64,000 nt of DNA, taken from the sequence record PZ445439.1. The stretch is one strand, 5' to 3'. Below the pieces are notes generated by a model. It made no database searches and had not been told where the DNA came from. It saw only the letters and a list, made by a program, of their open reading frames with translations. The translations under genes and the position numbers were made by a program. Positions within the stretch are counted from its first letter, which is position 1; each line of letters starts with the position of its first letter. This DNA comes from a phage. Of the stretch, positions 22,783 through 31,821 are shown in pieces.

Positions 22783-23169
22783 TTATTCGAGGGAAAGAAG
22801 ATATTTACTTTGATAAAACATTCCAGTAATATCATCTATCGTGCTTTGAATGGCTGGAGGCATTTCTTTATAAATGCTGTTAGATTGGTCTAGTATGCGA
22901 TCAATCATTTTAATTGTATCGGTAGGAAGTTTACTAGCATCTGGAATTGAAGGAGTGTATTTTCTACCAGAATACCCTAAATACTGCTCACCAAATTTGT
23001 CAATCAAATCTGGTAACTCAGAAAAAATAAAATCGTATGCTTTGTGTCTAGCATAACTTTTAGTTTCAAAATGTGCAGAATGAAAATAAGCTTGTGCAGC
23101 CATTAATAAACCTAAGTATTCATCTGCCTTTGAAGGTTTTCCACTTTGTGAAAAGTCGCTGAATTTCAT
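22783..23169 (-). CDS. hypothetical protein
   Basis: 128 aa ORF coupled to rI. Confidence 0.45.
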
Positions 23170-23459
23170 TCAGTCTCCAATTTAATGTTCATAATTCTAG
23201 CGTATGATTGTGCCATCTCCGCGCCTCGTTCTATACATTCAAAATCAGAAGAGCACGGGTCATTTTTATAGGTCGTTCTCATAAAACTATAGAATTGTTC
23301 AGACGATTCTACGCTTTTGTTTTCAAAAAGTGTATAAACATGCCTAATACCAGATTCCATAAATTTATCAAAATGAGGATCGACATTCGCTTCAATAGAT
23401 GGAGATAAAACAAATGACAATCCTAGCATGGCAAATAGTGCCGTTGCTTTTAAGGCCAT
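23166..23459 (-). CDS. rI: lysis-inhibition regulator RI (signal-anchored periplasmic protein)
   Basis: 97 aa; MALKATALFAMLGLSFVLSPSIEA signal sequence; sequence as recalled for T4 RI. Confidence 0.85.
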   Translation of the reverse strand: MALKATALFAMLGLSFVLSPSIEANVDPHFDKFMESGIRHVYTLFENKSVESSEQFYSFMRTTYKNDPCSSDFECIERGAEMAQSYARIMNIKLETE

Positions 23460-25056: not shown

Positions 25057-25265
25057 AACCATGTAACCTTTAAGCAATATTCTTCTACGTGTTGTTTACG
25101 ACCTTTCTTATCAATAAAAGTATATTCAACATATTCACCAATATACCACTTGTCTACATTATGTGGGCTTTTTATAGGACACTTGGTTACCCGAGTTTCT
25201 ATCCAACTCCGGATAATTGAAGCTTTGTTTTTAGGGTCAAACGGATGCGGGTAATGTGCTTTCAT
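25053..25265 (-). CDS. hypothetical protein
   Basis: 70 aa ORF coupled to macro-domain gene. Confidence 0.4.
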   Translation of the reverse strand: MKAHYPHPFDPKNKASIIRSWIETRVTKCPIKSPHNVDKWYIGEYVEYTFIDKKGRKQHVEEYCLKVTWL

Positions 25266-25716
25266 AATCCACCACTATTAAATCAATATCAGGAGTAAAC
25301 ATGTCGATTAATTTAGAAACCTTATCCCAATCACCGCCAGCAATACCACAACCTATACGTGGAATATAAATTACTGGTTTAAACAAAAGGGTTTCTGCCT
25401 GTAGATTTAATTCTATCATACAGTTTACTAAAGCACCATAATCAAGATTAGGACCTGGTTCGTATTGCGTATACAGGTTGTAACATATGCCAAAACCATT
25501 AGGTTTATGTTTAAAAACTATAGACATATCACCGAGTTTTTCACGCGAACCATATTCAGTTGTGGTCTTATCTATTTCTAAAATTTTGGGATAGGCTCTT
25601 GCTAATTGACCCGCTACACCTGAACCCATTGTGTGGAAGCAATTGCACCCGTGCGCAATAATATTACCTTCAAGAAAGAGGGCGACAATATCGCCCTTGA
25701 TATATTTTACAATCAT
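25237..25716 (-). CDS. macro-domain protein (ADP-ribose binding/processing fold)
   Basis: GDIV...HGCNC...GSGVAGQL N-terminal motifs and IPRIGCGIAGG C-terminal motif, matching macro-domain signature blocks. Confidence 0.6.
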   Translation of the reverse strand: MIVKYIKGDIVALFLEGNIIAHGCNCFHTMGSGVAGQLARAYPKILEIDKTTTEYGSREKLGDMSIVFKHKPNGFGICYNLYTQYEPGPNLDYGALVNCMIELNLQAETLLFKPVIYIPRIGCGIAGGDWDKVSKLIDMFTPDIDLIVVDYESTLPASV

Positions 25717-26060
25717 CTAGTACTCAATCCTCGATTATAAGAATCTACTAAACGGTCAACCATTGAACGACAAGCGGCTTTGTCTTTTTCCTCCGCAACT
25801 GAGCATTCTAAGGTATTCCACTTTTTAGCATATCGTTTTAATAATGTATCGTTTTTGTATCTACTTGTTTTATCTCTTTCTCCGTCTTTATATGCATATA
25901 TTAATTTCTGCGCAAACTCAGATTGACATGCTTTATTTTTCCCGCAATAATCTGCCGCAGTGCGGTTCACATACTCCCTAATTTCAGTATATGATGTATC
26001 TGCTGACGCGTAAGCAGAAAATGAAATTAATCCTATACATAAAACCAAAATTTTAGTCAT
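25713..26060 (-). CDS. secreted/periplasmic Cys-containing protein
   Basis: N-terminal signal peptide MTKILVLCIGLISFSAYA; 115 aa. Confidence 0.5.
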   Translation of the reverse strand: MTKILVLCIGLISFSAYASADTSYTEIREYVNRTAADYCGKNKACQSEFAQKLIYAYKDGERDKTSRYKNDTLLKRYAKKWNTLECSVAEEKDKAACRSMVDRLVDSYNRGLSTR

Positions 26061-26598
26061 TTACTATTTCCAAAAGTTTATTATTTTTAAGGTAATTAGC
26101 CTTTTCTAGGACTTCAGAAGCATATTTAGAACCTGCTTTAACATTCCATCCCGAATTATAAGAGGATATTGCTTTTCTTATATCGCCCTTATGTATATTT
26201 AACCAATAAGAAAGTTCAATGTACGCCCATGAAGCTGAATTGGATCGTTTATTCAACATTCTTTTTATTTCAGCATCGGTCATATTATAACCAAGTTCCT
26301 TAACTCTTGCTCGCATAGTAGGCAAATAATTTTGGAACATTCCATAAGCGTGATGCTTTGGTTTAGATTTTAAATTAACTCCGCCAGAGCTTTCTTGCCA
26401 TAAAATGGCTGCCATTATATGACCTAATCCACTCTTATGAACATTTTGGTGTGTTTTATATTTTCCATCCTTAGAAAACTGTTCCCCGAATTGATACGCG
26501 TAACGCATGTTATCGAGTTGGACATTACTGAAAGTATGCTCGGAGCTATGTGCCATCATTGAAATGGCCAATAGACCAGCGAGTAGTGCTTTTCTCAT
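26053..26598 (-). CDS. secreted lytic transglycosylase-like protein (SLT domain)
   Basis: signal peptide MRKALLAGLLAISMMAHS; SLT motifs WQESSG, YGMFQ, SYNSG. Confidence 0.6.
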   Translation of the reverse strand: MRKALLAGLLAISMMAHSSEHTFSNVQLDNMRYAYQFGEQFSKDGKYKTHQNVHKSGLGHIMAAILWQESSGGVNLKSKPKHHAYGMFQNYLPTMRARVKELGYNMTDAEIKRMLNKRSNSASWAYIELSYWLNIHKGDIRKAISSYNSGWNVKAGSKYASEVLEKANYLKNNKLLEIVND

Positions 26599-26605
26599 GT
26601 TTACC

Positions 26606-27067
26606 TCATTGAGTTTTAATTACTGCTTTAGAAGCCTTTCCTGGTAAACGACGACTGTTGATAATTGCCATCCTGCATTGAAGTGACGGGTCTTTGAACT
26701 TCTCATTAGGTTTACAAACCGTAAATCCAAGCCAAAGATTTCCATCAGTGATTTCTAAACGTCCAGGGCGATATTCAATTCCATCGATAAAATCTTCATC
26801 AATATCAGGACGCGGAGGCATACTCAGGAATTCATTAACTTCTAAAACATGGTCTTTTATTTTATGGAATAATTCAAAAACATATGTCTCATCAATCTCC
26901 CGTTGAATTGCACGATCAAGAAGATGCTGAGAATATTTTAGATGAAACGATGAGACCCCTGCTGCTTTTGATGCCTCACGAATCTCATTGTTAATTTGAC
27001 GAAACTCCGACTCAAAGTGACGACGAAGCTTATTTCGACGGATAAAAACTTCTGTGTTGATAGTCAT
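26606..27067 (-). CDS. regB: sequence-specific endoribonuclease RegB
   Basis: 153 aa; position between vs-region and tk as in T4; own strong early promoter. Confidence 0.7.
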   Translation of the reverse strand: MTINTEVFIRRNKLRRHFESEFRQINNEIREASKAAGVSSFHLKYSQHLLDRAIQREIDETYVFELFHKIKDHVLEVNEFLSMPPRPDIDEDFIDGIEYRPGRLEITDGNLWLGFTVCKPNEKFKDPSLQCRMAIINSRRLPGKASKAVIKTQ

Positions 27068-27094: not shown

Positions 27095-27124
27095 ATTATA
27101 CCACAGTTAAGAGGAAAAGTAAAC
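27095..27124 (-). promoter_or_regulatory. T4 early promoter with extended -10 (TGGTATAAT) and -35 GTTTAC
   Basis: minus strand GTTTACT-18 nt-TGGTATAAT then AAGAGGAG RBS of regB; -10 embedded in 9-bp inverted repeat CTCTTAACT/AGTTAAGAG. Confidence 0.6.

Positions 27125-31018: not shown

Positions 31019-31821
<803 letters not shown>

What the first reader, a model, noticed from the sequence alone, without database searches (positions are those of the whole stretch)
25713..26598. Two secreted early proteins, one a lytic transglycosylase-like enzyme
ORF 26053..26598 has a cleavable signal peptide and SLT-family catalytic motifs (WQESSG with the catalytic Glu, YGMFQ, SYNSG). ORF 25713..26060 also starts with a signal peptide and contains four Cys. 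Both are expressed from the early region rather than with the late lysis genes, so they are unlikely to be the endolysin, which is gene e at 31297..31785. Possible roles are local peptidoglycan remodelling or protection from superinfection and lysis from without.
Basis: partly seen in the sequence, partly recalled or inferred. Interest (0 to 1): 0.5.

Follow-up and report, generated by a model that had tools for sequence, protein, structure and literature searches.

The report
T4 vs.1 and vs: exported pair
These two small genes are the near-identical counterparts of phage T4 genes vs.1 (a cell-wall-cutting lytic-transglycosylase-like enzyme) and vs (named a "valyl-tRNA synthetase modifier"); both are already catalogued, but both carry conserved export signals, which fits the enzyme and clashes with the cytoplasmic job in the second gene's name.

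Summary
On the minus strand, 26053-26598 (181 aa) and 25713-26060 (115 aa) are real, expressed-type genes in a Tequatrovirus (T4-like) early operon, in the order regB, vs.1, vs, tk.4. They are orthologues of T4 vs.1 (2 aa differences) and vs (4 aa differences).

**Vs.1**
- It passes the Pfam SLT threshold.
- It keeps the invariant E69-S70, GMFQ and YNSG motifs plus Y159, collinear with E. coli Slt70.
- It folds as a GH23 lysozyme-like domain and has a Sec-type signal peptide.
- The SLT similarity was already published (2003/2006).

**Vs**
- It has a conserved signal peptide; one distant member has a lipobox instead.
- It has four invariant Cys, and its predicted four-helix bundle has no informative structural match.
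- In every one of 29 related loci where vs is present, vs.1 lies immediately upstream.
- This predicted periplasmic location conflicts with its historical label as a cytoplasmic ValRS modifier. I found nothing in the literature searched that addresses this.

**Published T4 data**
- Both have early RNA and both proteins were detected.
- Both are non-essential, but their transposon insertions are under-represented.
- vs is the T4 gene most depleted in minimal medium.
- Gene e is essential, so Vs.1 is not the endolysin.

The physiological role remains inferred. Verdict: ordinary and already-known genes, with one loose end worth testing.

The parts
27095..27123 (-). Early-type sigma-70 promoter-like site (TTTACT-17-TATAAT with extended TG) upstream of regB; likely start of the regB-vs.1-vs-tk.4 transcript
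   Evidence: Consensus scan, 10/12 matches plus TG; sequence read. The T4 orthologues have early RNA. Promoter activity was not tested.
26606..27067 (-). regB, the site-specific endoribonuclease and first gene of the unit
   Evidence: Pfam REGB_T4, E 9.6e-69.
26053..26598 (-). vs.1 orthologue: 181-aa precursor of a predicted periplasmic GH23/SLT lytic-transglycosylase-like enzyme (mature about 18.8 kDa, pI 9.6, no Cys)
   Evidence: ORF; Pfam SLT; PHROG 600; AF2 pLDDT 87.8; Foldseek hits to MltD, Slt, Slt70 and a GH23 chitinase; 2 aa differences from T4 Vs.1.
26545..26598 (-). Predicted Sec signal peptide of Vs.1 (residues 1-18, MRKALLAGLLAISMMAHS, predicted cleavage AHS|SE)
   Evidence: Heuristic. 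Equivalent signals are present in all 30 aligned homologues and in Ackermannviridae, Felixounavirus and Aeromonas-phage homologues.
26137..26418 (-). SLT-domain match (residues 61-154)
   Evidence: Pfam PF01464, profile positions 16-101 of 117.
26392..26394 (-). Codon of Glu69, the predicted catalytic acid (E-S motif)
   Evidence: Invariant in 30 of 30 homologues. Aligns to Slt70 E505 (precursor numbering) and MltE E64. Codon checked.
25713..26060 (-). vs orthologue: 115-aa precursor of a predicted exported four-helix-bundle protein (mature about 11.1-11.3 kDa, pI 9.0). It overlaps the vs.1 stop by 8 nt and the tk.4 start by 4 nt
   Evidence: ORF; PHROG 1256 and the precomputed Pfam PF26829 ValRS_modifier on its homologues; AF2 pLDDT 83.5; 4 aa differences from T4 Vs; junction sequences.
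26001..26060 (-). Predicted Sec signal peptide of Vs (residues 1-18 or 1-20; AYA|S or ASA|D)
   Evidence: Heuristic. Conserved in 23 distinct homologues. A distant member, P0096, has a lipobox (LSGC) instead.
25770..25946 (-). Span holding the four invariant Cys codons: C39 (25944-25946), C45 (25926-25928), C86 (25803-25805), C97 (25770-25772). They are placed to staple helices 1-2 and 3-4
   Evidence: Alignment A1; 23 sequences; helix boundaries H22-39, H43-63, H70-86 and H91-112; codons checked. Disulfide formation is inferred.
25237..25716 (-). tk.4 (macro-domain protein, T4 AdfM), the next gene in the unit; context only
   Evidence: Pfam Macro, E 2.4e-8; AdfM anti-DarTG2 assignment in preprint 10.1101/2025.11.20.689424.

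Best explanation
The region is the vs.1-vs segment of a T4-type early operon (regB, vs.1, vs, tk.4).

Vs.1:
- It is made early, exported through Sec and cleaved to an approximately 18.8-kDa soluble periplasmic enzyme.
- It belongs to the GH23/SLT family. It uses Glu69 as the single catalytic acid to cleave MurNAc-GlcNAc bonds of the host sacculus, most likely as a lytic transglycosylase producing 1,6-anhydroMurNAc ends.
- It is not the endolysin. It most likely makes limited cuts that remodel or loosen the wall during the pre-lysis period.
- It is a non-essential function that improves phage fitness, more so in minimal medium and on a wild E. coli host.

Vs:
- It is translated from an overlapping start. 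It is also exported and folds into an approximately 11-kDa four-helix bundle stapled by two disulfides.
- It most likely acts in the envelope, in the same pathway as Vs.1, as a partner or regulator. It probably does not act, or does not act only, as a cytoplasmic ValRS modifier.

Shown here: gene identity and orthology, SLT-family membership by sequence motifs and predicted fold, conservation of signal-like N-termini and of the Cys, and synteny.

Taken from papers: early timing, protein detection and fitness phenotypes in T4.

Inferred: actual export, enzymatic activity and product, the physiological role, and any Vs-Vs.1 interaction.
For: Identity:
- The region is 96-98.6% identical in DNA to Tequatrovirus genomes annotated regB / hypothetical / vs / macro.
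- Only 2 and 4 aa differ from T4 Vs.1 and Vs.

Enzyme class:
- Pfam SLT above the gathering score, and in 28 of 30 relatives.
- W67, E69, G86, F88, Q89, N90, Y147, N148, G150 and Y159 are invariant.
- The motifs are collinear with Slt70: E69/E505, GMFQ86/GLMQ520, YNSG147/YNAG579, Y159/Y614.
- The AF2 model (pLDDT 87.8) matches MltD, P. aeruginosa Slt, Slt70, Cj0843, a GH23 chitinase, the phi6 lysin and T7 core proteins (probability about 1, TM 0.45-0.54).
- There is no acidic residue between E69 and G86, as in transglycosylases rather than goose-type lysozymes (sequence; the goose-type Asp positions are from memory).

Export:
- Signal heuristics plus a positive control, rI.
- Signals are conserved across three phage families for Vs.1 and across 23 distinct Vs sequences.
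- There is a lipobox variant of Vs and four invariant Cys at helix ends.
- T4 itself has no in-frame alternative start codon (ATG, GTG or TTG) at codon 31 that could give a leaderless Vs.

Linkage:
- vs.1 lies immediately upstream of vs in 29 of 29 loci, with overlapping or abutting ORFs.

T4 data:
- Both are early-RNA/middle-protein.
- Both are non-essential, but mean insertion counts are 26.6 (vs) and 22.6 (vs.1), against 178.6 (regB), 652 (vs.3) and 289.6 (tk.4).
- From LB to M9, vs changes by -2.19 (q=0) and vs.1 by -0.87 (p=0.0055).
- On isolate CFE299, vs.1 changes by -1.20 (q=0.015).
- Gene e is essential.
Against: - No dedicated signal-peptide predictor and no experiment. Export and cleavage are predictions.
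- Similarity to solved transglycosylases is remote: no PDB sequence hit by phmmer or by profile, weak hhalign statistics, and Foldseek E-values of only 6e-3 to 0.3.
- No activity data exist for Vs.1 in the literature searched.
- Vs carries a decades-old biochemical label as the factor that binds cytoplasmic ValRS. From my own memory of that literature, there are in vivo genetic interactions with valS(ts) hosts, which argues for a cytoplasmic pool.
- Vs.1 occurs widely without Vs (2013 phage records against 795), so Vs is not required for Vs.1 function.
- Vs shows no structural resemblance to known lysozyme or transglycosylase inhibitors.
- The shared fitness phenotype could partly reflect polarity of vs.1 insertions on vs.
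Confidence: 0.68

Rival explanations
1. Vs is exactly what its name says. It is a cytoplasmic early protein that binds host valyl-tRNA synthetase. Its hydrophobic N-terminus is not, or is only inefficiently, used for export. Adjacency to vs.1 is just T4 gene packing.
For: - Annotation as ValRS modifier in T4 and hundreds of relatives, PHROG 1256 and Pfam ValRS_modifier.
- The vs deletion is specifically defective in minimal medium, where aminoacylation could be limiting.
- From memory: classical work purified a factor of about 10 kDa bound to ValRS and found genetic interaction with valS(ts) hosts.
Against: - Signal-like N-termini are conserved in 23 distinct Vs sequences despite sequence drift.
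- One member has a lipoprotein lipobox.
- Four invariant Cys sit at helix termini, as expected for periplasmic disulfides.
- T4 has no alternative start for a leaderless form.
- The mature mass of 11.1-11.3 kDa fits a factor of about 10 kDa (size from memory) better than the 13.2-kDa precursor does, which would imply processing.
- I could not verify with these tools how the genetic vs locus was tied to this ORF.
Confidence: 0.25
2. Vs.1 is an auxiliary lysis enzyme. It is a pre-positioned periplasmic muralytic enzyme, like Sec-exported or SAR endolysins. It is held in check (perhaps by Vs) until the holin fires, and then speeds up wall destruction.
For: - A signal peptide plus a muralytic fold.
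- A small exported neighbour that could be a restraint.
- Weak PHROG matches to transglycosylase domains of endolysins and lytic tail proteins.
Against: - It lies in the early operon, far from t, e and the spanins, and its RNA is early.
- T4 gene e is essential while vs.1 is not, so Vs.1 cannot lyse cells on its own.
- The Vs fold resembles no known inhibitor.
- Homologues in other phage families also sit among early genes: next to rIIA/rIIB in REP10 and next to gp46 in Menlow.
Confidence: 0.12
3. The pair protects the infected cell against secondary phage attack (superinfection exclusion or resistance to lysis from without).
For: Predicted periplasmic location and early timing, like the T4 proteins Spackle and Imm. 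Spackle is likewise a small periplasmic protein that acts on a lysozyme (abstract of PMC7650644).
Against: - No evidence here.
- From established knowledge, T4 already assigns these functions to sp and imm.
- A wall-cutting enzyme would be expected to weaken the wall against lysis from without, not protect it.
- The minimal-medium phenotype is not obviously linked to superinfection.
Confidence: 0.08
4. Vs.1 is a catalytically inert SLT-fold protein that only binds peptidoglycan or another glycan.
For: Remote similarity only, and no activity data.
Against: The catalytic Glu and all four family-1 motifs are invariant or nearly so across homologues as low as about 30% identity and across three phage families.
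Confidence: 0.05

Closest known systems
Phage T4 gene vs.1 (Vs.1 'conserved hypothetical protein'; PHROG 600)
   Same: Orthologue: 179 of 181 residues identical to T4 Vs.1 and the same position between regB and vs. An exact copy is in public databases, some labelled 'transglycosylase SLT domain-containing protein'. The SLT similarity was reported in 2006, citing 2003.
   Different: Nothing material. Only K51Q and I53V differ.
[quoted passage not shown]
   Same: Orthologue: 111 of 115 residues identical and the same position. T4 Vs has the same signal-like N-terminus and the same Cys.
   Different: The named function is cytoplasmic. The sequence features, which T4 Vs shares, predict export. The window copy alone has an internal GTG preceded by AGGGAG at codon 31, which T4 lacks.
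Family-1 lytic transglycosylases (E. coli Slt70 C-domain, MltE/EmtA, MltD; Pfam SLT, CAZy GH23)
   Same: E-S, G-x-x-Q, Y-N-x-G and Y motifs in the same order and with similar spacing, a single catalytic Glu, a lysozyme-like helical fold and a periplasmic location.
   Different: Very remote in sequence, with no PDB sequence hit. It is a stand-alone 163-aa mature protein with a family-specific N-terminal segment (FSNxQLDNLxYAYxFGEQ) and no lipid anchor or accessory domains. It is phage-encoded and early. No relatives were found in representative bacterial genomes by a pattern scan of limited sensitivity.
'Specialised' lytic transglycosylases of secretion and conjugation systems (VirB1, P19 of plasmid R1, IpgF, EtgA); comparison from my own knowledge
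   Same: A small (150-250 aa), signal-peptide-bearing, single-SLT-domain enzyme thought to make local gaps in the wall rather than lyse the cell.
   Different: Vs.1 is not encoded within a gene cluster for an envelope-spanning machine, and no such partner is evident in the operon.
T4 Spackle (gp61.3), a periplasmic inhibitor of the gp5 tail lysozyme
   Same: Like Vs, a small periplasmic T4 protein that acts on a muralytic enzyme (PMC7650644 abstract). Its early timing is from my own knowledge.
   Different: No fold or sequence similarity to Vs was detected. No evidence that Vs binds any muralytic enzyme.

Membership tests
Pfam SLT (PF01464) / GH23 family-1 lytic transglycosylases: Vs.1 | Profile match above the curated threshold | tested here: met
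   25.0 bits against a 21.3-bit cut-off, E 1.5e-5, residues 61-154. 28 of 30 homologues match at E<=0.01. Distant homologues: Menlow 22.1 bits, phiAS4 20.4 bits, REP10 16.7 bits.
Pfam SLT (PF01464) / GH23 family-1 lytic transglycosylases: Vs.1 | Catalytic Glu in an E-S motif, aligned to the catalytic Glu of characterised enzymes | tested here: met
   E69-S70 is invariant. hhalign places E69 on Slt70 E505 (precursor numbering) and on MltE E64. The alignment statistics are weak, but the motif context is unambiguous. That these are the catalytic residues is from my own knowledge.
Pfam SLT (PF01464) / GH23 family-1 lytic transglycosylases: Vs.1 | Motifs II (G-L-M-Q), III (A-Y-N-x-G) and IV (Y), collinear | tested here: met
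   GMFQ 86-89, SYNSG 146-150 and Y159. Spacing E to G is 17 (15 in Slt70); spacing Q to Y is 58 (56 in Slt70). These positions are invariant or nearly so.
Pfam SLT (PF01464) / GH23 family-1 lytic transglycosylases: Vs.1 | Lysozyme-like alpha-helical GH23 fold | tested here: met
   AF2 pLDDT 87.8, pTM 0.82. The top Foldseek PDB hits are all GH23: MltD, Ralstonia chitinase, Slt, Slt70, Cj0843. Probability is 0.96-1.0, but E-values are 6e-3 to 0.3 and TM-scores 0.43-0.54.
Pfam SLT (PF01464) / GH23 family-1 lytic transglycosylases: Vs.1 | Non-hydrolytic cleavage giving 1,6-anhydroMurNAc products | not testable with these tools
   Needs an enzyme assay on sacculi with muropeptide HPLC/MS.
Sec-exported, signal-peptidase-I-cleaved proteins: Vs.1 and Vs | Basic n-region, uncharged hydrophobic h-region, small residues at -3/-1, polar mature part | tested here: met
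   My own heuristic. Only rI, vs and vs.1 among 140 window ORFs meet it. The pattern is conserved across homologues. SignalP-type software was not available.
Sec-exported, signal-peptidase-I-cleaved proteins: Vs.1 and Vs | Demonstrated translocation and cleavage | not testable with these tools
   Needs fractionation, reporter fusions or N-terminal peptide mass spectrometry.
T4 Vs 'valyl-tRNA synthetase modifier' (PF26829, PHROG 1256): ORF 25713-26060 | Sequence orthology and synteny with T4 vs | tested here: met
   96.5% identity to T4 Vs. PHROG 1256, E 5.4e-39. regB-vs.1-vs-tk.4 order.
T4 Vs 'valyl-tRNA synthetase modifier' (PF26829, PHROG 1256): ORF 25713-26060 | Cytoplasmic location compatible with binding ValRS | tested here: not met
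   By sequence prediction only: a conserved signal peptide, a lipobox variant and four invariant Cys. This applies to T4 Vs itself, so it questions the function label, not the orthology.
T4 Vs 'valyl-tRNA synthetase modifier' (PF26829, PHROG 1256): ORF 25713-26060 | Physical binding to and stabilisation of ValRS | not testable with these tools
   The original papers are not held in the library. No complex prediction was available.
Phage endolysins (holin-dependent, SAR or Sec-exported): Vs.1 | Late expression or a lysis-cassette context, and a requirement for lysis | tested here: not met
   Early operon. vs.1 is non-essential while e is essential in T4. The e orthologue is present at 31297-31785.
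Periplasmic lysozyme/transglycosylase inhibitors (Spackle, Ivy, PliC/MliC, PliG): Vs | Sequence or fold similarity to a known inhibitor | tested here: not met
Periplasmic lysozyme/transglycosylase inhibitors (Spackle, Ivy, PliC/MliC, PliG): Vs | Binding and inhibition of a muralytic enzyme | not tested
Needs a pull-down or activity assay with Vs.1.

The most novel reading that the evidence does not exclude
Vs is not, or not only, a cytoplasmic modifier of valyl-tRNA synthetase. It is an exported, disulfide-stapled periplasmic protein that works with the neighbouring exported transglycosylase Vs.1 on the cell envelope. On this reading, the recently found conditional essentiality of vs in minimal medium reflects an envelope function. 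The classical ValRS 'modification' would then be either a secondary activity or an association formed after compartments are mixed in extracts. A corollary is that many virulent enterobacterial phages (Straboviridae, Ackermannviridae, Felixounavirus) share an early periplasmic transglycosylase step that has never been studied.
Probability: 0.3. Interest if true: 0.6.

Novelty: already known. Interest (0 to 1): 0.33.

Why it matters
As sequence features these are catalogued T4 genes, and the SLT-like nature of vs.1 has been in print since 2003/2006. The finding therefore adds no new kind of element.

Three things make it worth a small follow-up:
- vs.1-type exported transglycosylases occur in about 2,000 phage records across at least three families, always among early genes. 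No role is known for a wall-cutting enzyme made minutes after infection.
- The sequence of vs predicts a periplasmic protein, which is at odds with its 50-year-old functional name.
- A 2025 transposon screen singled out vs as the T4 gene most needed in minimal medium and showed that vs.1 insertions are also under-represented. A phenotype now exists with which the localisation and epistasis questions can be tested directly.

Tried and rejected
1. **Internal start in vs.** In the window, codon 31 is GTG, preceded by AGGGAG. Starting there would give an 85-aa, 9.8-kDa leaderless protein, close to the approximately 10 kDa I recall for the ValRS factor, and could have reconciled export with a cytoplasmic role. 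Some databases even annotate an 85-aa Vs. Rejected because T4 itself and five close relatives have GTA and AGAGAA/AGAGAG there.
2. **Sequence search of both proteins, and of the Vs.1 profile, against PDB chains.** Nothing significant.
4. **Exhaustive profile search for Vs relatives in 1.84 billion representatives.** Only 8 were found. The one I located on a contig (P0096) lies in a T4-like context, and the public names and hosts of the other family members are T4-type phages. No cellular homologue turned up to hint at function.
5. **Scan of representative bacterial genomes for Vs.1 relatives.** None confirmed. The method is pattern-based, so its sensitivity is limited.
6. **NCBIfam.** No hits for either protein.
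7. **Literature.** The classical vs papers and the 2003 T4 genome review are not held. I could not check how the genetic vs locus was assigned to this ORF. I found no paper that discusses a signal peptide in Vs or Vs.1.
8. **Polarity as the sole cause of the vs.1 fitness signal.** Considered unlikely, because insertions in the upstream gene regB are not depleted. It is not excluded, since an internal promoter could exist.
Full report
**What is there**

The window is a Tequatrovirus (T4-type) phage genome segment. The 1.9 kb around the finding is 96-98.6% identical to many T4-like coliphages. Their annotation reads, on the minus strand, regB (endoribonuclease), a hypothetical protein, 'valyl-tRNA synthetase modifier' and a macro-domain protein.

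The window ORFs are:

| Gene | Coordinates | Length |
|---|---|---|
| regB | 26606-27067 | 153 aa |
| vs.1 | 26053-26598 | 181 aa |
| vs | 25713-26060 | 115 aa |
| tk.4 | 25237-25716 | 159 aa |

- regB hits Pfam REGB_T4 at E 9.6e-69, and tk.4 hits Pfam Macro.
- Against T4 itself, Vs.1 differs at 2 residues and Vs at 4.
- Exact copies of both proteins are already public, for example in phages PaulHMueller/Bas45, BECP11 and JoYop.
- The genes are tightly packed. The vs start overlaps the vs.1 stop by 8 nt (ATGACTAA), and the tk.4 start overlaps the vs stop (ATGA).
- An early-type promoter-like site (TTTACT-17-TATAAT, extended TG) lies upstream of regB at 27123-27095.

**Checking the observation: Vs.1**

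- The protein passes Pfam's curated SLT threshold (25.0 bits against 21.3). So do most relatives (28 of 30 at E<=0.01).
- In an alignment of 30 homologues down to 41% identity, W67, E69, G86, F88, Q89, N90, Y147, N148, G150 and Y159 are invariant.
- The four family-1 transglycosylase motifs are collinear with E. coli Slt70 and similarly spaced: E69/E505, GMFQ/GLMQ, YNSG/YNAG, Y159/Y614.
- Profile alignment puts E69 on Slt70 E505 (precursor numbering) and on MltE E64. The statistics of those single-sequence comparisons are weak. That these are the catalytic residues is from my own knowledge.
- An AlphaFold2 model is confident (pLDDT 87.8). Its best PDB matches are all GH23 enzymes: MltD, P. aeruginosa Slt, Slt70, Cj0843, a Ralstonia GH23 chitinase, the phi6 lysin and T7 core proteins. 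Scores are modest, as expected for a remote member.
- Direct sequence or profile searches of PDB find nothing.
- So family membership is supported by motifs, profile and fold. Activity is inferred.

**Checking the observation: export**

- Both N-termini have the classical tripartite layout.
- A crude rule set applied to all 140 ORFs of at least 60 aa in the window picks out only three. These are vs, vs.1 and rI, which is experimentally exported and serves as a positive control (PMC8385771 listed).
- For Vs.1, the signal is kept in all aligned homologues. It is also kept in distant ones from Ackermannviridae (Menlow), Felixounavirus (REP10) and an Aeromonas phage.
- For Vs, 23 distinct sequences from 28 related loci all keep four features. 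These are a basic residue at positions 2-4, a hydrophobic core, small residues before the mature part, and exactly four Cys in the mature part with conserved spacing.
- The most distant Vs member found has a lipoprotein lipobox (LSGC) in place of the signal-peptidase-I site.
- The Vs model (pLDDT 83.5) is a four-helix bundle. C39/C45 flank the turn between helices 1 and 2, and C86/C97 flank the turn between helices 3 and 4, which suits two disulfide staples.
There is a fifth Cys in the signal segment.

**Distribution and linkage**

- Vs.1 relatives occur in 2,013 of 50,697 phage records.
- They include Straboviridae, Ackermannviridae and Felixounavirus, and in each case they sit among early-type genes: regB, rIIA/rIIB, gp46.
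- None was confirmed in representative bacterial genomes by a pattern-based scan.
- Vs is much narrower. There are 795 phage records, 13 clusters at 90% identity and only 8 representatives in a 1.84-billion-protein library searched with a profile.
- In 29 of 29 loci that contain vs, vs.1 is the gene immediately upstream.
- Vs diverges faster (41-54% identity) than Vs.1 (60-70%) or RegB (55-63%) in the same genomes.
- Vs.1 therefore does not need Vs. Where Vs exists, it is always coupled to vs.1.

**What is known from T4**

- The SLT similarity of vs.1 was reported as 'marginally significant', and conserved in 6 of 6 genomes, in 2006, citing earlier PSI-BLAST work (PMC1524935).
- A time-resolved omics study classes both vs and vs.1 as early RNA with middle-phase protein, so both proteins are made.
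- A 2025 transposon-sequencing preprint (10.1101/2025.11.20.689424) scores both as non-essential on LB. It names vs as the T4 gene most depleted in M9-glucose, confirmed with a clean deletion.

| Measure in the preprint's tables | vs | vs.1 | regB | vs.3 | tk.4 |
|---|---|---|---|---|---|
| Mean insertion count in LB competition | 26.6 | 22.6 | 178.6 | 652 | 289.6 |
| LB to M9, log2 change | -2.19 (q=0) | -0.87 (p=0.0055, q=0.16) | +1.17 | not used | not used |
| K-12 to wild isolate CFE299, log2 change | -1.04 (p=0.13, q=1.0) | -1.20 (q=0.015) | not used | not used | not used |

- Insertions in regB, upstream in the same unit, are not depleted. Simple polarity therefore does not explain the vs.1 signal, although an internal promoter cannot be excluded.
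- Gene e is essential in the same screen (4 of 45 sites hit). Vs.1 therefore cannot substitute for the endolysin.

**Most likely mechanism**

- Vs.1 is an early, Sec-exported, soluble periplasmic lytic transglycosylase of about 18.8 kDa (mass).
- It cuts glycan strands of the host wall with Glu69 as the catalytic acid.
- The stretch between E69 and the GMFQ motif has no acidic residue. This resembles transglycosylases rather than goose-type lysozymes (from my knowledge of the family).
- It is early, non-essential and unable to replace e. I therefore favour limited remodelling or loosening of the wall during the pre-lysis period over a lytic role.
- Why that helps the phage is not known. The larger effects in minimal medium and on a wild host suggest dependence on the state of the envelope.
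- Vs is most likely a periplasmic partner or modulator in the same pathway. This rests on export features, strict adjacency and the shared fitness signature. There is no structural or biochemical evidence of an interaction.

**The loose end**

- Vs carries the name of a cytoplasmic function, and T4 Vs has the same export features as the window copy.
- The predicted mature mass (11.1-11.3 kDa) fits the approximately 10 kDa I recall for the purified ValRS-binding factor better than the 13.2-kDa precursor does. If anything, that suggests a processed protein.
- I tested one reconciliation, a leaderless isoform from an internal GTG at codon 31 with an AGGGAG Shine-Dalgarno sequence. I rejected it because T4 and close relatives lack both elements.
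- The original vs papers are not in the library. I could not check how the genetic locus was tied to this ORF, nor whether modification was shown without mixing cell compartments.
- From memory, there are in vivo genetic interactions between vs and valS(ts) hosts. These keep the classical model alive, and I give it about 0.25.

**Comparison and novelty**

- These are known genes of a known phage type, with a previously published domain assignment.
- In enzyme class, Vs.1 works like family-1 lytic transglycosylases.
- In architecture, it most resembles the small signal-peptide-bearing 'specialised' transglycosylases of secretion and conjugation systems, but it lacks an associated machine.
- Vs has no informative relative outside its own small family.
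- I rate novelty as 'already known' and interest as low to moderate.
- The interest lies in two points. One is the unaddressed conflict between the sequence of Vs and its name. The other is the existence of a widespread, unstudied class of early periplasmic phage transglycosylases.

Noticed in passing
window 25237-25716 (minus): tk.4 is a macro-domain protein (Pfam Macro, E 2.4e-8). A 2025 preprint names the T4 orthologue AdfM, an anti-DarTG2 factor. Many public records still label it 'phosphatase' or hypothetical.
   Followed up: partly
L009-L035 (IMG/VR loci), tk.4 position: tk.4 is mosaic relative to its neighbours. Loci whose vs.1 and vs are 94-99% identical to the window can have tk.4 at only 56-57%. 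Loci with vs at about 45% can have tk.4 at 91-93%. This suggests allele exchange at the anti-defence gene, independent of the flanking genes.
   Followed up: no
L008 3363-3755 (Klebsiella phage KP179) and L004 4724-5143 (Logan contig): In these T4-like phages a third signal-peptide ORF (130 and 139 aa, e.g. MKKAAILLCCAFSVNA|WEKLPGYP) follows vs, ahead of the tk.4 homologue. It has no Pfam hit. It forms a small cluster of exported early proteins.
   Followed up: partly
window 25968-25979 (minus), vs codons 28-31: The window's vs has an in-frame GTG at codon 31, preceded by AGGGAG. This would give an 85-aa product, and an 85-aa 'Vs' is annotated for phage IME340. T4 and five close relatives have GTA and AGAGAA/AGAGAG instead. 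It is probably a gene-caller trap rather than a conserved isoform. The GGAG is also a RegB-type motif.
   Followed up: yes
public records and UniRef names for Vs.1 and Vs homologues: Several Vs.1 homologues are labelled 'endoribonuclease', 'RegB' or 'site-specific RNA endonuclease' (P0021, P0050, H49, H53, H63). Several Vs homologues are labelled 'valyl-tRNA synthetase' (the enzyme). These look like annotation slips carried over from the neighbouring gene or from a shortened name.
   Followed up: no
window 23166-23459 (minus): The rI orthologue (97 aa) is the only other ORF in the window with a Sec-type N-terminus by my heuristic. This agrees with published evidence for a cleavable signal peptide in T4 RI.
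   Followed up: partly
window 25678-25698 (both strands): A GC-rich inverted repeat (8 pairs) scored as terminator-like on both strands. It lies inside the 5' end of tk.4, just downstream of the vs stop. Its function is unknown.
   Followed up: no
L004 2800-3081: In a distant T4-like contig, a 93-aa ORF two genes upstream of regB in the vs.3-vs.5 region carries Pfam Acb2_Tad1_hairpin, an anti-CBASS/Thoeris sponge family. The regB-e region therefore holds several counter-defence genes.
   Followed up: no
phage record PV654520.1 (H14): A record named 'Pseudomonas phage vB_PSGBLB0006' (host P. aeruginosa, 142 kb) is 96% identical to this coliphage region. The host label or the assembly may be wrong.
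   Followed up: no
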